Assembly: GCA_014382375.1 (NCBI GenBank)
Contig: JACNJU010000144.1
Span: forward strand, 23,030-47,029
DNA from: Rhodospirillaceae bacterium
GTDB lineage: Bacteria; Pseudomonadota; Alphaproteobacteria; Rhodospirillales; JABHCV01
Length of the DNA stretch: 24,000 bases
Direction of reading: 5' to 3'
Part shown: piece by piece, positions 5,639 to 22,314 of the stretch
How the letters are laid out: each line of letters starts with the position of its first letter
How positions within the stretch are numbered: the first letter of the stretch is position 1
The notes under the pieces: generated by a model
Database searches by the model: none
Told to the model about the DNA's origin: nothing
What the model saw: the letters and a program-made list of their open reading frames with translations, nothing else
Translations under genes and position numbers: made by a program

Positions 5639-6787
5639 ATGACCAACCCGCGGCGTTTTCTTCTTCGAATGGTTTTGTTCCTGATAGCCGTGCTGGCTGT
5701 CGCATTCTTTCTGTTCGAGCCACTGCAAGGCGCGTTTATGGCCAACGCGCCCTTGAACGGATTGATCATCGGGGTCCTTGTGCTAGGCGTGATTTACAAT
5801 TTCCGACAGGTCATCATGCTCTATCCGGAAGTTTCGTGGATTGAAAACTTCCGTCAGAACGGCCAGGCCACTTCGCAAGGCAGCCAGCCGCGTCTGCTGG
5901 CCTCCATGGCGACAATGCTGGGAGAGCGTAACCGCGATCATTTAAGCCTGTCCGCGCTTTCCATGCGCTCCTTGCTGGATGGTATTTATTCCAGGCTTGA
6001 TGAATCCCGCGATCTGTCGCGCTATACAATCGGGCTGCTGATTTTCCTGGGCCTGCTGGGCACTTTCTGGGGATTGCTTGGCACCGTTGCTTCCATCGGC
6101 AACGTTATTGCCAATCTGAGCATCAATGCTGAAACCGCGGCCGTCTTTGCGGATTTGAAAGATGGCCTGCAAGCGCCCATGACCGGCATGGGAACGGCAT
6201 TTTCATCATCCCTATTCGGTTTGGCCGGATCACTGGTGCTGGGTTTTCTTGATCTTCAGGCCGGACAAGCCCTGAACCGCTTTTACAATGACCTTGAGGA
6301 ATGGCTGTCCAGCCTGACCCGCCTGTCCAGCGGCGCGCTCTCCGCCAGCGGCGAGGGCGACCAATCCGTTCCGGCTTATGTTCAGGCGCTTCTCGAGCAG
6401 ACGGCCGAAAGCCTTGAAAGCCTGCAGCGGACAATTGGCAAAGGTGAGGAAAGCCGGATTTCGGCGAACAACACCCTGATGGCTGTCGGCGAGAAAATGG
6501 GCACGCTGAGCGATCACATGCGCACGGAGCAGGCGCTGATGATGAAACTGGCCGAAAGCCAGCTTGAGATGAAACCGATCCTCGCCCGTTTGGCTGAAAA
6601 CAGCGGCTCATTGGGTGGCTCAAGCGGCGGTCTGGATGAGGCGACCCGCAGTCATATCCGCAACCTGGATGTCTATATGGCGCGTCTGGTCGAAGAACTG
6701 GGCAGCGGCCGGGAGGACATCATCTCGCAGATTCGCAGCGAAATCAAACTGCTCGCCCGCACCATCGCCGCGACCAAGGACGGGTAA
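5639..6787 (+). CDS. MotA/TolQ/ExbB-family proton-channel protein with a ~170-aa C-terminal coiled-coil tail
   Basis: 382 aa. I see four hydrophobic segments by eye (res ~8-27, 39-60, 129-150, 184-207). It carries the family-typical GLLGTFWGLLGTV and GMGTAFSSSLFGLAGSLVLGF. The heptad-rich tail reads QALLEQTAESLESLQRTIG...MMKLAESQLEMK. Confidence 0.8.
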   Translation: MTNPRRFLLRMVLFLIAVLAVAFFLFEPLQGAFMANAPLNGLIIGVLVLGVIYNFRQVIMLYPEVSWIENFRQNGQATSQGSQPRLLASMATMLGERNRDHLSLSALSMRSLLDGIYSRLDESRDLSRYTIGLLIFLGLLGTFWGLLGTVASIGNVIANLSINAETAAVFADLKDGLQAPMTGMGTAFSSSLFGLAGSLVLGFLDLQAGQALNRFYNDLEEWLSSLTRLSSGALSASGEGDQSVPAYVQALLEQTAESLESLQRTIGKGEESRISANNTLMAVGEKMGTLSDHMRTEQALMMKLAESQLEMKPILARLAENSGSLGGSSGGLDEATRSHIRNLDVYMARLVEELGSGREDIISQIRSEIKLLARTIAATKDG

Positions 6788-9811: not shown

Positions 9812-10039
9812 GTGAAGAAAGATACGCATCCAGACTACCATGAAATCACCGTCCAGATGACTGACGGCAGCACCTACGCGACCCGCTCCACCTGGGGCAG
9901 TGCCGGTGACACCATCAAGCTGGACATCGACCCGAAAACACACCCTGCCTGGACTGGTGTTCATCGCCTGCTCGACAGTGGTGGACAGTTGGCCAAGTTC
10001 AATAAGAAGTTCAAAGATTTCGGATTGAAGCACGATTAA
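9812..10039 (+). CDS. rpmE: 50S ribosomal protein L31
   Basis: 75 aa: [20 protein letters not shown]...HPAWTG...[11 protein letters not shown]. It has a GTG start with an SD upstream. Confidence 0.95.
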
Positions 10040-10097
10040 TAAATTCTGGCTAAGGATTAGCCTGGATAAGTTCTCACGGGGGGGGTGGGAGTAACTG

Positions 10098-10637
10098 ATG
10101 GCTCATCAGACGCATTACGAAGTTCACGTTAAGCAGAACGGTCGCTGGGAAATCCACGGGCGCCATTCGCAGGCGGAAAAAGAACAGGCCATCGAGGAAG
10201 CCAAGTCCCTGGACGGGCAAAAGCACATCCAGGCTGTCAAGGTGATCCAGGAAATTTACGATCCTGAAGAGGGATCGTCCAAGGAGTATAACGTCTATGC
10301 TCCTGGCCAGAAAAAATACCAGCCGCCCCGCAAAAAAACCAAGAAAGACATCGCCAGGGAAGAAGAAGAAGCAGCGAGCACGGCGGCCAGAAGTATCAGG
10401 AAACCCCAAAAAAGCGGTCGTTCCCTTGTCAGCATTCTGATGAGTATCGCCCTGATTTCAGCCTTCTCGACCATCGTTGGCGCGCTGTTTACATGGTTTA
10501 CCGGAATGTTCCTGGCCGATTCAGGCGTCAGTGGCAACGCCCAGACAAATATCCTTTTTATCGTCTTCCTGTCGGTCTTCGTAATCGCCGCCATTCCCAT
10601 GGCCATCGTCTTCCTTGGCAAAAACGACGACGATTAG
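10098..10637 (+). CDS. Membrane protein (179 aa): unassigned N-terminal module plus a 2-TM hairpin; short paralog of the cyclase N-terminus
   Basis: SD GGGAG lies 6 nt upstream. The N-terminal ~67 aa and the 2-TM region align by eye with residues 1-210 of the next ORF (EVHV.QNGRWEI.GRH, AK.LD, VKVI.E.YD.E.G, QTNI.F). A basic linker (KKYQPPRKKTKKD) precedes TM1. Confidence 0.65.
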   Translation: MAHQTHYEVHVKQNGRWEIHGRHSQAEKEQAIEEAKSLDGQKHIQAVKVIQEIYDPEEGSSKEYNVYAPGQKKYQPPRKKTKKDIAREEEEAASTAARSIRKPQKSGRSLVSILMSIALISAFSTIVGALFTWFTGMFLADSGVSGNAQTNILFIVFLSVFVIAAIPMAIVFLGKNDDD

Positions 10638-10745
10638 AGTCACCCTTTCCAAGATTCCCATTCAGGATGTCAAAAACAACCCGCTTGACTTATAGTTTCC
10701 ATAATTGTTTTCAAGGACAAGCAAAGTTCTGCTGTAGGAAACGCA

Positions 10746-12605
10746 ATGGCTAAGCAGATTATTTTTGAGGTGCATGTCTTTCAGAACGGCCGATGGGAAA
10801 TCCAGGGCCGCCATGAATCTTCTGAGATGAAGGCAGCCATTGCCGATGCCAAGGGGCTGGACCAACTCCCAAACATCGACATGGTCAAGGTCATCCTTGA
10901 AGAATATGACGATGAAACAGGCCACACCACAGAAAACATTGTCTACCGCTCGGCTGGCATGGCAGACAGCGAAGGTGGCCCAATCTCCATGGCTTCCAAG
11001 GTCAGAGCCGAAAAAAAATCCAACTCCTCATTTGGCGGGTCATCGGCATCTTCAGCGGGCTCGTCATTTTTTGATGACGACGATGATGATGATTTTGATG
11101 ATGACTTTTCGTCAGCCCGGGCAAGGAAATCGGCACGGGCAAGGCGTCCTGGCGGGCCCAGAAAAACCACCTTCGTCGGTGTCCTCGTTAAAATTCTCCT
11201 GATTATCCTGTTCTCTGTAACCATCGCGGCCTTAATGGCGGGTGGCGCGATCATGTTCCTGCGCGATACCTCCCTTAGCAGCAACGTGCAGACAAATATC
11301 GTGTTTGTCATGTTTATTGTTATTTTCCTGCTCAGCGCCGTTGTCATGTCCATGAATTTCATGCGCAAGGATGAAATCAGCACCCCCAACATACATGCAC
11401 CAAGTAGACGACAACGCCCCAAAAAGGCGCCCAAAAAAGCCCCAAGGCCTGAAAAAACGAAAAGCGAAAAAGAAGAGAGGCCAACCAAAAAGAAAATTGA
11501 AAAAGATGAAGATCTTGATCCAAGCGAAGAAGGCCTCGCTTCCAAGGCCGGGGAAGAATTGAAAGAGCAACTCAGTAAAGAAAAATCCAAGGAAGAAGAA
11601 AAAGAAGAGAAAAATGCGACCCCCGACCCTGAAGAAGAGCAGGAGGATGAGACACCCGAACCGGAACCCGAAGTACCCGCAAGCCTGTCTGCCCACGCCG
11701 AGAAGCAGCGCGTCTACCTGATGACGTTTTTAAGCGAGGGTCTGGAGAGATGTGAAGCCGACACAAAGAAACTCGACAGTTTCAACAAGTTCGGCCTCAA
11801 CCTGTATTTGGCCGGGGCCAGTGAGATTATGGGACAGGCGCGCAACCTGGATCATTATTCCCTGACCAAGATTCTCGCTGAAACCGTCTCATTGATGGGC
11901 TTTAAAGATGCGGACGCCGCCAAGTTCGCGGAAAAGTACGAAGACTACCTGCTCGCCGATGCCAGGTACATGCAGATGTTCCAGGCCGGCCGCAACGCCA
12001 TGAATTCCTACATGGAGAAAAACCCCGAGGCCATGAAATATCTGGGCCAGGCCCTGACCGACTGGAACAAGCCAACACAAAAGGAGGAAAGCACAGGCCC
12101 GGTCACTGTGCTGTTCACCGATATCGCCGGTTCCACGGCAATGACCCAGAACCTGGGCGACGCCGTTGCCCAACAAATCGTGCGCGCCCACAACCGTATT
12201 GTCCGCGAAGCGCTCACGCAATTTGCCGGCAAGGAAATCAAACACACCGGCGATGGCATCATGGCGTCGTTTTCGACCACCTCAAACGGAGTCGAAGGCT
12301 CTATCAAAATCCAGATTGATACGGCCAAACACAACGAAAACAACCCGGACCTTCCCCTGCACATCAAGATCGGTCTCAACGCCGGGGAACCCATATCCGA
12401 AGACAATGACCTGTTCGGTTCGACCGTGCAGATGGCGGCGCGCATTGTCGACAAGGCAAAGGCCGACGAGATTTTTGTTTCTGAAATCGTTCGCGGTATC
12501 TGTGCCGGCAAGGAAACCACCTTCAAAAACCGAGGTCCCTTCGCCATGAAGGGCTTCGATGAAGACCCAATCCTCTATGAAGTTGTGTGGAAAAAAGAAG
12601 AATAG
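10746..12605 (+). CDS. Membrane-anchored class III adenylate/guanylate cyclase carrying the same N-terminal module, a 2-TM hairpin, a K/E-rich linker and a helical domain
   Basis: 619 aa. The C-terminal domain (nt ~12096-12590) has VLFTDIAGSTAMT, EIKHTGDGIMASF, KIGLNAGEP and LFGSTVQMAARI, a class III cyclase pattern. It also contains a poly-Asp run FFDDDDDDDFDDDF and a K/E-rich segment at nt ~11400-11650. Confidence 0.85.
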   Translation: MAKQIIFEVHVFQNGRWEIQGRHESSEMKAAIADAKGLDQLPNIDMVKVILEEYDDETGHTTENIVYRSAGMADSEGGPISMASKVRAEKKSNSSFGGSSASSAGSSFFDDDDDDDFDDDFSSARARKSARARRPGGPRKTTFVGVLVKILLIILFSVTIAALMAGGAIMFLRDTSLSSNVQTNIVFVMFIVIFLLSAVVMSMNFMRKDEISTPNIHAPSRRQRPKKAPKKAPRPEKTKSEKEERPTKKKIEKDEDLDPSEEGLASKAGEELKEQLSKEKSKEEEKEEKNATPDPEEEQEDETPEPEPEVPASLSAHAEKQRVYLMTFLSEGLERCEADTKKLDSFNKFGLNLYLAGASEIMGQARNLDHYSLTKILAETVSLMGFKDADAAKFAEKYEDYLLADARYMQMFQAGRNAMNSYMEKNPEAMKYLGQALTDWNKPTQKEESTGPVTVLFTDIAGSTAMTQNLGDAVAQQIVRAHNRIVREALTQFAGKEIKHTGDGIMASFSTTSNGVEGSIKIQIDTAKHNENNPDLPLHIKIGLNAGEPISEDNDLFGSTVQMAARIVDKAKADEIFVSEIVRGICAGKETTFKNRGPFAMKGFDEDPILYEVVWKKEE

Positions 12606-12614
12606 CGCCCTCCC

Positions 12615-12643
12615 CTTGCGCCCAACATTTGACGACCATATAT
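12615..12643 (+). promoter_or_regulatory. Candidate RpoH (sigma32)-type promoter of hsp20
   Basis: CTTG (12615-12618), an 18-nt spacer, then CATATAT (12637-12643). This is close to the alphaproteobacterial CTTG-N17/18-CYTATNT consensus, with one mismatch in the -10. Confidence 0.3.
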
Positions 12644-12649
12644 CCACGT

Positions 12650-12761
12650 TAACGACGGATGCCGACACGAAAGGGTCCGCCGTAAGACAACACCAGGGGT
12701 CCGACCATGATGGTGGGCACCGATTAACCAGTCTCGCTTGATAAAAGGAGAAAACGCTATG
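12650..12761 (+). promoter_or_regulatory. ROSE-like RNA thermometer in the hsp20 5' leader
   Basis: The predicted leader is ~110 nt. The final hairpin pairs TCTC-G-CTT (12732-12739) with AAGGAGA (12745-12751), masking the SD, with a bulged G opposite it. The 5' arm contains UCGCU, matching the ROSE U(U/C)GCU signature. An additional upstream hairpin is ACGACGGA...TCCGCCGT. The downstream gene is an IbpA-class sHSP. Confidence 0.45.
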
Positions 12762-13229
12762 CGTACAATTGATTTCACCCCCCTTCACCGTTTTGCCGTC
12801 GGCTTTGATCGCATGCAACGCCAATTCGACCACGCCATGCAAGTGGATGACGCCCAGTCGTCCTATCCGCCCTACAACATCGAGGCATTAAGGGCCGAGG
12901 ATGGTGCCGATAAATATCGCATCACCATGGCGGTCGCCGGTTTTGGCGAAGAAGACCTGGCTATTGAGCTTAAGGAAGACACCCTGTTCGTTTCAGGCAA
13001 GGCCGATAAACCAGAGCAGGAAGTTCAATACCTGCATCATGGTATTGCCGGTCGTGCGTTCGAACGCCGTTTTGAACTCGCCGATCACATCAAGGTTCTT
13101 TCCGCAAGCCTGGAAAACGGCATGTTACATATCGAACTGGCCCGCGAAGTGCCCGAAGAAAAGAAACCGCGCCGGATCAACATTGAACCCGCAAGCAAAG
13201 CCAAAGGGATTGAAAACAAGGCCGCCTGA
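12759..13229 (+). CDS. Small heat shock protein, Hsp20/alpha-crystallin family (IbpA-like)
   Basis: The alpha-crystallin domain reads YPPYNIE...YRITMAVAGFGEEDLAIELKEDTLFVSGK...GIAGRAFERRFELAD...NGMLHIEL. I prefer the ATG at 12759 (AAGGAG 8 nt upstream) over the track's TTG at 12738. Confidence 0.9.
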   Translation: MRTIDFTPLHRFAVGFDRMQRQFDHAMQVDDAQSSYPPYNIEALRAEDGADKYRITMAVAGFGEEDLAIELKEDTLFVSGKADKPEQEVQYLHHGIAGRAFERRFELADHIKVLSASLENGMLHIELAREVPEEKKPRRINIEPASKAKGIENKAA

Positions 13230-20162: not shown

Positions 20163-21011
20163 CTAGAAATTCAGGGCACCGAGATCGAGTTTTCCACCCA
20201 GCACCGGCGGACACCAGAAATAGCTGCCGGAAATCGGTTTGCTAAACCGGAACAAGCCGTCAATGATCCGATCTTCCTGGCCGGTCATCCGGGCAAGTTG
20301 CGCCTCAAAGGCGGCAAAGGAGCTGCCGAAAGCGACAAACATCAATCCCTCTCCTGTGGCATCGGACCAGGGCATCGAACGACGAACAAGAAAAGCCTCT
20401 GGATCAAAGGTTTCCTGCGCCGTTCGTTTGACGTGGGCCGAAAGGGGTGCGTCATCAAGTTCTTCATTATCACTCAATCGGCGACCGATAATGTTGTCAC
20501 AATCGTCCTGGGACAGGGTCTCGAAATAATCCAGATCATGGACCCATTGCTGGACCGCAACAAAACTGGAGCCATCGTTGATCGCCGCGTCCACGGCCGC
20601 CTCACCGACAGGATTTTCGGTGCCATCCTCATAACCACTGAGGTCGCGGCCGCTGTCATATTTAAACCCGTTTATCAGGCGAACGCGGTGAAAGGCGGAG
20701 GCAAGATGCCGGTTGAGGGAACGGCTCTGACGAACAATAGGGTCGCACTCGCTGCCCCTGATCCAACACCATAGATCAGCTTGCGTCGAAGGAACGTCAC
20801 AGCCCTGCCCACTGACAGGAGGGAAAGGCCGAAGCGCTTCAAGCGAACCAGCCAGCGAAGGACCTATTCCGACAACGATATCAGCGTCAATCTCTACCCC
20901 GGCAAGCACATCAAGTGCAGCCGCAGGCTCGACATCGGCAAGCAGGTCGAATTCCAGATAACGAGAGAAATTCGGAACGGGTTCAAGAATTCCCGTCTGT
21001 GGTATGTTCAT
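20163..21011 (-). CDS. Dyp-type peroxidase
   Basis: 282 aa starting from the ATG at 21011 (MNIPQTGILEP...), with SD GGAGG ~8 nt upstream. It has the Dyp GXXDG motif (SGYEDGTENP) and the C-terminus MFVAFGSS...FSKPISGSYFWCPP. The 518-aa track ORF extends spuriously into rhlE out of frame. Confidence 0.85.
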   Translation of the reverse strand: MNIPQTGILEPVPNFSRYLEFDLLADVEPAAALDVLAGVEIDADIVVGIGPSLAGSLEALRPFPPVSGQGCDVPSTQADLWCWIRGSECDPIVRQSRSLNRHLASAFHRVRLINGFKYDSGRDLSGYEDGTENPVGEAAVDAAINDGSSFVAVQQWVHDLDYFETLSQDDCDNIIGRRLSDNEELDDAPLSAHVKRTAQETFDPEAFLVRRSMPWSDATGEGLMFVAFGSSFAAFEAQLARMTGQEDRIIDGLFRFSKPISGSYFWCPPVLGGKLDLGALNF

Positions 21012-21063
21012 TGCAAAGCCTCCACCCTGTCCTGCAACGAATATCATAGTTTCGCAATGCAGG

Positions 21064-22314
21064 CTATGCAGCCCTTTTTGTCGAGTTTCCTGAACGACCG
21101 CGGTGACGGCGTCGCGGGCCAGAACTGTTCCTGCGCTGTTGGGGACGCTTGGCCGGCCTGGTGTCGTTGGCGATCTCGGCAGCGTGGAATGAATGATCCT
21201 CGAAAACCGGTACGCTCTGGCGAATGATTTTTTCGATATCACGCAGGTAGCCGCGTTCCTCGACATCACAAAACGAAATTGCAATACCCGACGCCCCGGC
21301 ACGCGCTGTGCGGCCAATGCGATGGACGTAACTTTCAGGCTCGTTGGGAAGGTCGAAGTTGATAACATGGGTGACGCCGTCAACATCAATACCACGGGCC
21401 GCGATGTCGGTAGCCACCAGGGCCCGGATTTTACCCGAACGGAAGCTGTTAAGCGCCCGCTGGCGGGCGTTCTGGGTCTTGTTGCCGTGAATGGCGTCGG
21501 ATTGAATACCGTTTTGATGCAGGTGCCTTGAGACACGGTCGGCACCGTGTTTGGTGCGGGTGAAAATAAGCACCCGGGAAATATCCCTGTCGTCCAGCAA
21601 TTCGCCAAGCAAGGCGCGTTTATTGTCTTTTCGAACAAACAGTACCCGTTGCTCGATTTTCTCGACAGTGGTCGCCGCCGGGGCAACCTCAACCCTAATC
21701 GGGTCACGAAGCAGGCCATCGGCCAGCCCCTGAATCGTTCCCGGCATGGTCGCCGAGAACATCACTGTCTGACGTTTGTTCGGCAGGGCGGCGGTGATTT
21801 TCTTAACATCGGGGATAAAGCCCATGTCGAGCATACGATCAGCCTCATCAAGGATAAAGATTTCCACATCATCAAGATAAAGGTGTCGCTGGTTCATCAG
21901 ATCGATTAGCCGACCCGGTGTCGCGACCAGGATATGGACGCCCTGGGCCAGAGTCTTGATTTGCGGACGAATGGAAGCACCGCCGTAAACCACGGTCGAG
22001 CGCAAATGCATATGACGTCCGTAAGCCCGGATGCTGTCATTGATCTGACCGGCAAGTTCGCGGGTCGGGGCCAATATCAAGGCACGCGGTTTGCGGCTTT
22101 GCGGACGGGTGCCATTTGATGCCAGACGATTTAGCAGCGGCAACGCGAAGGATGCCGTCTTGCCGGTACCGGTCTGGGCGACGCCCAACAGGTCGTGCCC
22201 TTCAAGCAGTGCCGGAATCGACTTTTGCTGGATCGGCGTCGGGGTGGAATAGCCTTCATCGGCAATAGCGCGAAGGATGGGTTGGGCTAAATCAAAGCCC
22301 GTAAAATCAGTCAT
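21064..22314 (-). CDS. rhlE: DEAD-box ATP-dependent RNA helicase (RhlE-like)
   Basis: 416 aa with motifs AQTGTGKT, PTRELA, DEAD, SAT and HRIGRTARAG, plus a basic C-terminal tail RRNSSGPRRRHRGRSG. Confidence 0.9.
   Translation of the reverse strand: MTDFTGFDLAQPILRAIADEGYSTPTPIQQKSIPALLEGHDLLGVAQTGTGKTASFALPLLNRLASNGTRPQSRKPRALILAPTRELAGQINDSIRAYGRHMHLRSTVVYGGASIRPQIKTLAQGVHILVATPGRLIDLMNQRHLYLDDVEIFILDEADRMLDMGFIPDVKKITAALPNKRQTVMFSATMPGTIQGLADGLLRDPIRVEVAPAATTVEKIEQRVLFVRKDNKRALLGELLDDRDISRVLIFTRTKHGADRVSRHLHQNGIQSDAIHGNKTQNARQRALNSFRSGKIRALVATDIAARGIDVDGVTHVINFDLPNEPESYVHRIGRTARAGASGIAISFCDVEERGYLRDIEKIIRQSVPVFEDHSFHAAEIANDTRPAKRPQQRRNSSGPRRRHRGRSGNSTKRAA

What the first reader, a model, noticed from the sequence alone, without database searches (positions are those of the whole stretch)
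10098..12605. Tandem paralogous membrane proteins with an unassigned N-terminal module, one fused to a class III nucleotidyl cyclase
Two adjacent same-strand genes share an architecture. The ~67-aa N-terminal module reads MAHQTHYEVHVKQNGRWEIHGRH..AIEEAKSLD..VKVIQEIYDPEEG..YNVY in one and MAKQIIFEVHVFQNGRWEIQGRH..AIADAKGLD..VKVILEEYDDETG..NIVY in the other, roughly 45% identical by eye. Both then have a charged linker and a 2-TM hairpin with a conserved short loop (N[AV]QTNI[LV]F). The 179-aa protein stops there. The 619-aa protein continues with a poly-Asp run, a ~90-aa K/E-rich linker, a ~130-aa helical domain and a cyclase domain. Positive-inside logic places both the N-module and the cyclase in the cytoplasm. 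I cannot assign the N-module to a named family; its beta-beta-alpha-like pattern only loosely recalls DUF2188. A stand-alone sensor-plus-anchor copy next to a cyclase-fused copy suggests a heteromeric regulatory pair (decoy or partner controlling cAMP or cGMP output). To my knowledge this has not been described.
Basis: partly seen in the sequence, partly recalled or inferred. Interest (0 to 1): 0.7.

Follow-up and report, generated by a model that had tools for sequence, protein, structure and literature searches.

The report
Adenylate cyclase with truncated partner paralog
A marine Rhodospirillaceae genome carries a membrane-anchored adenylate cyclase with two uncharacterised domains, next to a conserved short copy that keeps only the N-terminal domain and membrane hairpin; related genomes suggest this short copy is a non-catalytic partner of the enzyme.

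Summary
Genes at 10098-10637 (179 aa) and 10746-12605 (619 aa) are paralogs (BLASTP E=4e-29). They share a 68-aa N-terminal module and a two-helix membrane hairpin.

The module has no Pfam, NCBIfam or PDB match. It is predicted confidently as a beta-beta-alpha-beta-beta fold. The long protein adds a six-helix domain, also unmatched, and a class III cyclase domain with an ATP-type Lys/Asp pair.

The long gene belongs to a family found mainly in Rhodospirillales. It almost always lies between rpmE and hsp20.

The short gene arose once, in one marine clade. It is under purifying selection and was co-inherited with the long gene. It lies next to the cyclase in 5 of 8 lineages checked.

Two other variants exist in relatives:
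- Some genes are split inside the periplasmic loop, into module+TM1 and TM2+cyclase.
- An independent clade has a full-length but catalytically dead upstream paralog in the same position.

I infer that the short protein is a non-catalytic partner that tunes cAMP output. This is not shown. It is a new variant of a known kind, of moderate interest.

The parts
9812..10039 (+). rpmE (ribosomal protein L31). It is the conserved upstream neighbour of this cyclase family.
   Evidence: PF01197, E=3e-24. rpmE lies directly upstream of the family's cyclase gene in most related loci. No T-run terminator was found on the + strand before the short gene.
10098..10637 (+). Short paralog, 179 aa: N-module, charged linker, 2-TM hairpin, then stop. 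It has no catalytic domain.
   Evidence: ORF. A GGGAG sequence lies 8 nt before the ATG. 52 homolog clusters of 173-203 aa when complete. dN/dS is 0.11-0.26.
10098..10301 (+). N-module of the short protein (aa 1-68).
   Evidence: Alignment A1. The AF2 model of the family module has pLDDT 90.8 and a beta-beta-alpha-beta-beta fold. Mean pairwise identity across 19 genomes is 79%. It is closer to the family consensus than the neighbouring long copy in 19 of 19 genomes.
10422..10622 (+). TM hairpin of the short protein: TM1 about aa 109-139, loop 140-150, TM2 about 151-173.
   Evidence: Hydrophobic segments in the translation. They align with the long protein's hairpin. Mean identity across genomes is 63%.
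10638..10745 (+). Intergenic spacer of 108 bp between the two paralogs.
   Evidence: No terminator-like site on the + strand. One weak promoter-like match at 10667-10696 and an AGGAAA sequence before the ATG.
10746..12605 (+). Long paralog, 619 aa: a membrane-anchored class III adenylate cyclase.
   Evidence: ORF. PF00211. More than 237 homolog clusters with the same architecture.
10746..10949 (+). N-module of the long protein (aa 1-68).
   Evidence: Mean identity across genomes is 65%.
10950..11165 (+). Variable linker with a poly-Asp run followed by an Arg/Lys-rich stretch (aa 69-140).
   Evidence: Sequence. Only 27% mean identity across genomes.
11166..11366 (+). TM hairpin of the long protein: TM1 about aa 142-172, loop 173-183, TM2 about 184-205.
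   Evidence: Mean identity across genomes is 68%. In some relatives the gene is split within this loop.
11367..11681 (+). K/E-rich, low-complexity linker (aa 208-312).
   Evidence: Sequence. 38% mean identity across genomes and no conserved columns.
11682..12080 (+). Conserved six-helix domain of unknown family (aa 313-445).
   Evidence: AF2 pLDDT 87.4, pTM 0.83, six helices. No Pfam, PDB-profile or Foldseek match. 73% mean identity across genomes. Invariant motifs include FNKFG and YLLxDxRYMQMFQAGRN.
12084..12590 (+). Class III cyclase homology domain (aa 447-615).
   Evidence: PF00211. Best PDB matches are Ma1120 (E=2.5e-21) and Rv1900c/LipJ. D459, K499, D503, D555, R566 and K602 are invariant. 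Q562 replaces the canonical Asn in 118 of 119 homologs; the other has a gap.
12738..13229 (+). hsp20 (small heat-shock protein), the conserved downstream neighbour.
   Evidence: PF00011, E=1e-20. hsp20 lies downstream of the cyclase in many related loci.

Best explanation
What the long gene is (shown). It encodes a membrane-anchored class III adenylate cyclase of a family found mainly in Rhodospirillales. From N- to C-terminus: a cytoplasmic beta-beta-alpha-beta-beta N-module, a variable acidic/basic linker, a 2-TM hairpin with a short periplasmic loop, a roughly 100-aa low-complexity linker, a six-helix domain and the catalytic domain. The gene ancestrally lies between rpmE and hsp20.

What the short gene is (shown). 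It is a paralog that has lost everything after TM2. It arose once in one marine clade, is under purifying selection, and was co-inherited with the long gene.

How it most likely works (inferred). The N-module and the catalytic half are both tied to the same TM hairpin by long flexible linkers. That suits regulation by contact between tethered domains, or by control of dimerisation. It does not suit a rigid signal passing through the membrane.

Class III cyclases work only as dimers, and each active site uses residues from both subunits. I therefore propose that the short protein joins the long protein's oligomer through the shared hairpin and/or N-module. As a subunit without a catalytic domain, it would most simply reduce or re-tune cAMP synthesis according to the short:long ratio. 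The direction of the effect is not known.
For: Identity and likely activity of the cyclase:
- PF00211 is above its cut-off. All metal-binding, ATP-specifying and phosphate-binding residues are invariant in 119 homologs.
- Gln562 replaces the canonical Asn in 118 of 119 homologs; the other has a gap. The closest solved relative, Ma1120, has Ala at that position and is an active adenylate cyclase. Changing that Ala to Asn drastically reduced its AC activity.

The short copy is functional, not a remnant:
- 52 clusters with intact ORFs.
- dN/dS is 0.11-0.26.
- Its N-module is more conserved than the long copy's in the same 19 genomes, 79% against 65%.
- Its N-module scores closer to an outgroup profile in 19 of 19 genomes.

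Co-inheritance with the cyclase:
- rpmE-short-long-hsp20 is seen in the window and in four further lineages, down to 52% identity.
- The short proteins form one clade in 100 of 100 bootstrap replicates. The branching within that clade mirrors that of the neighbouring long proteins.

The module+TM unit can work on a separate polypeptide:
- In six loci the gene is split inside the periplasmic loop. ORF1 is N-module + linker + TM1. ORF2 starts 20-50 bp later and is TM2 + linker + six-helix domain + intact cyclase domain.
- At least 16 cluster representatives have the ORF1 architecture.

A non-catalytic partner evolved twice:
- In a separate clade the gene between rpmE and the active cyclase is a full-length paralog. 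It keeps the N-module and hairpin, but the metal-binding, Asp555, Gln562-position, Arg566 and Lys602 positions are replaced; Lys499 is retained in 39 of 45. It has no PF00211 hit.
- That paralog defines a conserved family of about 50 clusters.
- The short clade and the dead clade never group together (0 of 100 replicates).
Against: - No interaction was tested. No multimer prediction or experiment was available.
- In 3 of 8 lineages the short gene is not near a cyclase. Two have cytochrome c - short - hemerythrin, and one has tRNA methyltransferase - short - TPP enzyme. Linkage is therefore not obligatory, and the short protein may have a role of its own.
- Short and long hairpins in the same genome share only 27-39% identity. 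That could fit co-assembly or independent assembly equally well.
- What the N-module binds is unknown, so the input signal is unknown.
- The Gln for Asn replacement has not been tested in any enzyme. Activity is inferred.
Confidence: 0.42

Rival explanations
1. The short protein acts in parallel with the cyclase rather than on it. It would be a membrane-tethered copy of the N-module that binds the same unknown ligand or partner. It could work as a sponge or decoy, or as an anchor for another process, without touching the cyclase.
For: The short gene lies away from any cyclase in 3 of 8 lineages, twice beside hemerythrin and cytochrome c genes. Its N-module keeps the ancestral sequence better than the long copy's does. 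The two hairpins have diverged to 27-39% identity.
Against: The split genes show that the module+TM1 unit normally works together with the TM2-cyclase half. Adjacency and matching tree topology hold in 5 of 8 lineages. In the profile hits I could inspect, the N-module was found only in this cyclase family and its derivatives.
Confidence: 0.3
2. The short protein is a positive, required subunit. It would supply an ancestral-type N-module in trans, to activate or correctly localise a long protein whose own N-module has drifted.
For: The long copy's N-module is less conserved (65% against 79%) and further from the family consensus in 19 of 19 genomes. In split genes the N-module is always supplied in trans.
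Against: The long copy's N-module is still well conserved, with all invariant residues (E8, Q13, W17, V49) intact. Relatives with a single long gene work without any short partner. In the dead-paralog clade the upstream copy has lost catalysis, which fits a modulator better than an essential activator.
Confidence: 0.15
3. The short ORF is a decaying remnant of a tandem duplication and has no function.
For: It looks like a truncated copy. Tandem full-length duplicates exist in relatives (L001).
Against: Intact ORFs in 52 clusters down to 52% identity. dN/dS is 0.11-0.26. Its N-module is more conserved than that of the functional neighbour. It has its own ribosome-binding site. It also persists after moving to other loci.
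Confidence: 0.03
4. The pair is a Pycsar-like anti-phage system, with a cyclase and a membrane effector.
For: PADLOC PycC models match the cyclase domain weakly (best 30 bits). A small 2-TM protein lies next to a cyclase.
Against: The PycC score is far below the generic PF00211 score (60 bits) and the LipJ score (95 bits). The short protein matches no PADLOC model. It is a paralog of the cyclase's own N-terminus, not a cNMP-binding effector. The locus is a conserved housekeeping neighbourhood (rpmE, cyaY, hsp20) in many Rhodospirillales, not a variable defence island.
Confidence: 0.01

Closest known systems
Ma1120 (M. avium) and Rv1900c/LipJ (M. tuberculosis) class III cyclase domains
   Same: They are the best solved-structure matches to residues 447-615 (E=2.5e-21 and 2.8e-16). 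They share the Lys/Asp ATP-specifying pair, both metal-binding Asp residues and the Arg. They also have a non-Asn residue at the transition-state position: Ala in Ma1120, His in Rv1900c, Gln here.
   Different: Those proteins have no N-module, no 2-TM hairpin and no six-helix domain. Rv1900c is fused to an alpha/beta-hydrolase domain. Identity is confined to the catalytic domain.
Cyclases that pair a degenerate paralog with a catalytic one: soluble guanylate cyclase alpha/beta, the C1/C2 halves of mammalian membrane adenylate cyclases, and chytrid rhodopsin-cyclase heterodimers (PMC8815786, listed)
   Same: A paralog with degenerate catalytic residues pairs with another subunit. This resembles the dead-paralog clade found here.
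   Different: In those systems the two halves complement each other to build one active site. Here the dead paralog lacks residues of both half-sites. The window's short paralog has no catalytic domain at all. The comparison rests on my general knowledge of those systems.
MicroProteins / small interfering peptides (e.g. LITTLE ZIPPER against HD-ZIPIII, Id against bHLH factors)
   Same: A truncated paralog keeps only the interaction domain of a protein that must dimerise. It titrates that protein into non-productive complexes. This is the logic I propose for the short protein.
   Different: Those are eukaryotic transcription-factor systems. No interaction has been shown here. The analogy is from my own knowledge and is a model, not a membership claim.
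Rv1264-type cyclases with an autoinhibitory N-terminal helical domain
   Same: A helical regulatory domain lies directly upstream of a class III catalytic domain.
   Different: There is no detectable sequence or fold similarity. The PDB entry 1y10 aligns only with the catalytic domain (452-587), and Foldseek with the six-helix model found nothing.

Membership tests
Class III nucleotidyl cyclase (PF00211) | Match to the family profile above the curated cut-off | tested here: met
   60 bits against a 21.9-bit cut-off, residues 447-605. PDB homologs Ma1120 and Rv1900c.
Class III nucleotidyl cyclase (PF00211) | Two metal-binding Asp residues | tested here: met
   D459 and D503 are invariant in 119 of 119 homologs.
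Class III nucleotidyl cyclase (PF00211) | Substrate-specifying pair (Lys/Asp for ATP; Glu/Cys-type for GTP) | tested here: met
   K499 in 119 of 119 and D555 in 117 of 119 homologs, which is the adenylate cyclase type. Ma1120 has the same K101/D157 pair.
Class III nucleotidyl cyclase (PF00211) | Transition-state Asn-Arg pair | tested here: inconclusive
   The Arg (R566) is present. The Asn is replaced by Gln562 in 118 of 119 homologs; the other has a gap. Ma1120 has Ala at this position and is active, so the replacement does not exclude activity.
Class III nucleotidyl cyclase (PF00211) | Catalytic activity and dimerisation | not testable with these tools
   Needs an enzyme assay. No multimer prediction was available.
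Pycsar anti-phage system | PycC-type cyclase, a cNMP-sensing effector, and a variable defence-island context | tested here: not met
   Only weak generic PycC hits of 30 bits or less. The short protein has no PADLOC hit. The neighbourhood is conserved and housekeeping.
Membrane cyclases coupled through HAMP or a rigid transducer helix (e.g. 6-TM Rv1625c type, HAMP cyclases) | Six-TM or HAMP module joined to the catalytic domain by a continuous helical transducer | tested here: not met
   There are only two TM segments and no HAMP hit. TM2 is separated from the rest by a poorly conserved low-complexity linker of about 100 aa.
Rv1264-type autoinhibited cyclase | Homologous N-terminal helical regulatory domain | tested here: not met
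   1y10 aligns only to 452-587. No Pfam hit for 306-448. Foldseek best E=1.1.

The most novel reading that the evidence does not exclude
The N-module plus TM hairpin is a previously undescribed, self-contained regulatory unit of a class III adenylate cyclase, tethered to the membrane and able to act in trans. Evolution has used it at least three ways: fused to the enzyme, split from it inside the periplasmic loop, and as an extra non-catalytic subunit. The extra subunit arose twice, once truncated (this window) and once full-length but catalytically dead. That would give bacteria a microProtein-like, dosage-based control of cAMP synthesis, in a locus tied to rpmE and hsp20.
Probability: 0.33. 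Interest if true: 0.7.

Novelty: new variant of a known kind. Interest (0 to 1): 0.55.

Why it matters
Most bacterial class III cyclases have N-terminal domains whose inputs are unknown. How membrane anchors control these enzymes is a long-standing question.

This family offers a natural set of comparisons: fused, split, truncated-partner and dead-partner versions of the same enzyme at the same conserved locus. Members occur in cultured genera, including Paramagnetospirillum, Magnetovibrio, Caenispirillum and Roseospirillum.

If the short protein does co-assemble with the cyclase, it would be a clear bacterial example of a truncated paralog regulating an enzyme that must dimerise. It would also define two new domain families: the N-module and the six-helix domain.

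If it does not, the finding is still a well-delimited family of uncharacterised cyclases with unusually stable gene order.

Tried and rejected
Searches that found nothing:
- Pfam and NCBIfam on both proteins, and Pfam on 27 N-modules and 23 six-helix domains. Only PF00211 was found.
- PDB sequence-profile searches with the N-module and six-helix alignments. Nothing below E=0.06.
- Foldseek against PDB. Best E was 0.07 for the N-module and 1.1 for the six-helix domain.
- Foldseek against BFVD. Only marginal matches to small uncharacterised phage proteins, best E=3e-3.
- PHROGs gave nothing useful.
- Rfam and tRNA scans of the window were empty.
- Three literature searches found no paper on this family.

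- The search for related loci with the N-module alignment failed because it has no conserved 7-10 column stretch. I used the full-length alignment instead.
- The first tree script timed out and the second crashed. I reran it with smaller sets.

Ideas rejected:
- Pycsar defence system (and the synteny data).
- Pseudogene remnant.
- Apparent short 2-TM proteins outside the window's clade (P0175, P0231). They lie on a contig end or a 1.1-kb contig and look like frameshift or assembly artefacts, so I did not count them.
- A common origin of the short paralog and the dead paralog (0 of 100 bootstrap replicates).
Full report
**1.

The window has two adjacent + strand ORFs at 10098..10637 (179 aa) and 10746..12605 (619 aa). 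BLASTP between them gives E=4e-29 over the first ~210 residues of the long protein. The N-terminal 68 residues are 53% identical.

Each protein then has a charged linker and two hydrophobic segments joined by an 11-residue loop with the shared motif N[AV]QTNI[LV]F. Lys/Arg clusters flank the hairpin on both sides in the long protein and before TM1 in the short one; the loop has almost none.

The long protein continues with a K/E-rich linker, a helical region and a class III cyclase domain (PF00211, 60 bits). The source organism is a marine Rhodospirillaceae MAG, going by the names attached to the identical database proteins.

**2. The domains**

*N-module.*
- It matches nothing in Pfam or NCBIfam, in PDB sequence profiles, or at a significant level in Foldseek against PDB or BFVD.
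- AlphaFold2 with a 27-sequence alignment gives a confident model (pLDDT 90.8). It has two beta-hairpins around one helix.
- Invariant residues E8, Q13, W17 and V49, with near-invariant G15 and R16, place the most conserved motif (Q-x-G-R-W) at the tip of the first hairpin.

*Residues 313-445.*
- This region is predicted as a six-helix domain (pLDDT 87.4, pTM 0.83).
- It has no Pfam, PDB-profile or Foldseek match either.
- It is strongly conserved, with motifs FNKFG and YLLxDxRYMQMFQAGRN.

*Cyclase domain.*
- It is closest to Ma1120 and Rv1900c.
- In 119 homologs the two metal-binding Asp (D459, D503), the ATP-specifying Lys (K499), and R566 and K602 are invariant. The ATP-specifying Asp (D555) is present in 117 of 119. 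Gln562 replaces the canonical transition-state Asn in 118 of 119; the other has a gap.
- Ma1120 has Ala at that position and is an active adenylate cyclase. Restoring Asn drastically reduced its AC activity (PMC4215837).
- The enzyme is therefore most likely an active adenylate cyclase, not a guanylate cyclase. This is inferred, not assayed.

**3. The family and its locus**

A profile of the N-module finds 903 cluster representatives (E<=1e-3) among 1.84 billion proteins. In the 150 best that I could inspect, complete proteins fall into three classes:
- cyclase-fused proteins of about 600-750 aa;
- short N-module + 2-TM proteins;
- N-module + linker + a single C-terminal TM helix.

A scan of one genome per species recovered about 50 family loci. 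Nearly all are labelled Rhodospirillales or Alphaproteobacteria. They include Magnetovibrio blakemorei, Paramagnetospirillum caucaseum, Caenispirillum bisanense, Roseospirillum parvum, Oleispirillum naphthae and Marivibrio halodurans.

In most of these loci the cyclase gene lies directly downstream of rpmE, often with cyaY and an MFS transporter further upstream and hsp20 downstream. The rest of the window is housekeeping and contains no cNMP-binding protein. The cyclase-fused gene is therefore the ancestral state, and most species have it alone.

**4. The short paralog**

- It has 52 homolog clusters, all about 175-200 aa when complete.
- In a neighbour-joining tree of N-module + hairpin the short proteins form one clade in 100 of 100 replicates. 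Their sister group is unresolved. Their internal branching mirrors that of the neighbouring long proteins. This indicates one old duplication-plus-truncation event followed by co-inheritance.
- The order rpmE-short-long-hsp20 was confirmed directly in four more lineages, down to 52% identity.
- Twenty short/long cluster pairs share the same longest-contig length. This is a weaker indication of co-occurrence.
- Selection is purifying, with dN/dS of 0.11-0.26 and saturated dS.
- Across 19 genome pairs the short protein's N-module is more conserved than the long protein's (79% against 65%). It is also closer to a profile built only from outgroup cyclases in 19 of 19 genomes.
- The short gene is therefore not a remnant. 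It appears to preserve the ancestral N-module while the neighbour's has drifted.
- Against obligate linkage: in three lineages the short gene is elsewhere. Two have cytochrome c - short - hemerythrin, and one has tRNA methyltransferase - short - TPP enzyme. I could not tell whether those genomes keep another copy at the rpmE locus.

**5. Two further variants in relatives**

*Split genes.* The single-TM class is the first half of a split cyclase. This holds in L025, L030, L031, L033, L092 and L093.
- ORF1 is N-module + acidic/Gly-rich linker + TM1, then a stop codon.
- ORF2 starts 20-50 bp later with TM2, followed by the linker, the six-helix domain and an intact cyclase domain.
- The break falls in the periplasmic loop. 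The N-module+TM1 unit must therefore work with the TM2-cyclase half as a separate polypeptide, presumably held by TM1-TM2 packing.

*Dead paralogs.* In a different clade (L037, L094) the gene between rpmE and the active cyclase is a full-length paralog.
- It keeps the N-module and hairpin but has no PF00211 hit.
- In 45 full-length members, D459 is Glu; D503 is Lys, Thr or Ser; D555 is Leu or Ile; Gln562 is Arg, His or Leu; and R566 is Ala or Thr.
- This dead paralog defines a conserved family of about 50 clusters.
- It groups with its own active partners in 70 of 100 replicates and never with the window's short proteins (0 of 100). It is therefore an independent origin.
- A third locus (L001) has two tandem copies that both keep all catalytic residues.

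A non-catalytic paralog retaining N-module + hairpin has thus arisen at least twice, immediately upstream of the active enzyme.

**6. Most likely mechanism**

Shown:
- The domain architecture and its conservation.
- The single origin of the short gene, and purifying selection on it.
- That the module+TM unit can exist on a separate chain.
- That non-catalytic partners recur.

Inferred:
- The N-module and the catalytic half both hang from the same hairpin on long, poorly conserved linkers (27-38% identity). A rigid transmembrane relay is unlikely. Regulation by contact between tethered domains, or by control of dimerisation, is more plausible.
- Class III cyclases are obligate dimers whose active sites combine residues from both subunits (established knowledge). 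A partner without a catalytic domain, or with a dead one, would yield complexes with no complete active site if it enters the oligomer through the hairpin or N-module.
- I therefore favour the short protein as a non-catalytic subunit that tunes cAMP output by dosage (confidence about 0.4).

The rivals are a decoy or independent role for the shared N-module ligand (about 0.3) and an activating subunit (about 0.15). The input signal is unknown. The stable rpmE and hsp20 neighbours hint at growth or stress coupling, but that is speculation.

**7. Comparison with known systems and novelty**

- The catalytic domain is an ordinary class III adenylate cyclase domain of the Ma1120/Rv1900c type.
- Pairing of a degenerate paralog with another subunit is known in soluble guanylate cyclase, in mammalian membrane cyclases and in chytrid rhodopsin-cyclases. 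In those systems the halves complement each other to form one site.
- The truncated-partner logic resembles eukaryotic microProteins.
- I found no description of this family, of either new domain, or of a cyclase partner lacking the catalytic domain.
- The Pycsar reading is rejected (and the synteny data).

I rate it a new variant of a known kind, with interest 0.55.

**8. Limits**

- There was no multimer prediction and no experiment.
- Only the top 150 of 903 profile hits could be inspected.
- The trees are neighbour-joining on 135 columns.
- Most genomes are MAGs, so some taxonomic labels are probably binning errors, for example L014 labelled Patescibacteria.

Noticed in passing
window 9812-13229; loci L002-L042, L081-L083, L088, L089, L094: The order rpmE - cyclase - hsp20 is kept in many Rhodospirillales, even where the cyclases share only about 30-45% identity. 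cyaY and an MFS transporter often lie upstream. This is unusually stable for a signalling gene and suggests co-expression or a functional link with rpmE or hsp20.
   Followed up: partly
L031 5980-7825; also L025, L030, L033, L092, L093: The cyclase gene is naturally split inside the periplasmic loop. ORF1 is N-module + TM1. ORF2 is TM2 + six-helix domain + cyclase domain. These loci are not next to rpmE.
   Followed up: yes
L037 3783-5738 and L094 4501-6471: A conserved family of about 50 clusters of full-length pseudo-cyclase paralogs. They have an N-module and 2 TM helices, a degenerate helical and cyclase region, and most catalytic residues replaced. Each lies between rpmE and an active paralog.
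   Followed up: yes
L001 5977-10041: Two tandem full-length paralogs downstream of rpmE, both with all catalytic residues intact. Their cyclase domains are 86% identical but their N-modules only 43%.
   Followed up: partly
L084/L085 and L091 (P0018, P0020); L090 (P0026): Short-paralog homologs lie away from any cyclase. Two sit between a cytochrome c gene and a hemerythrin gene, and one is beside a TPP-enzyme gene. It is unknown whether these genomes keep a second copy at the rpmE locus.
   Followed up: partly
window 12429-12431 (codon for Gln562 of the long protein): Gln replaces the canonical transition-state Asn in 118 of 119 family members; the other has a gap. The closest solved relatives have Ala (Ma1120) or His (Rv1900c) at this position.
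   Followed up: partly
window 10048-10062: A 6-bp-stem hairpin (GGCTAA-GGA-TTAGCC) lies just after the rpmE stop codon. It has no T-run on the + strand, so it is not a classical terminator. rpmE and the two paralogs may be co-transcribed.
   Followed up: no
window 20163-21719 and 21064-22314 (both - strand): Two long ORFs overlap by about 650 nt in different frames. The Dyp-peroxidase match covers only residues 357-505 of the first ORF, so its N-terminal part is probably an over-extended ORF running into the DEAD-box helicase gene.
   Followed up: no
window 5639-6787: A 382-aa ORF with no Pfam match lies between two OmpA-family genes. An equivalent unannotated gene holds the same position in related contigs (L081 369-1514, L083 639-1766).
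   Followed up: no
L014 (labelled Patescibacteria), L006 (Hyphomicrobiales), L062 (Rhodobacterales): These family loci carry unexpected taxonomic labels. L014 and L006 have the typical cyaY-rpmE-cyclase synteny, so their labels are probably MAG binning errors. L062 has a diverged N-module (E=4e-6) and no rpmE match, so it may mark the edge of the family.
   Followed up: no
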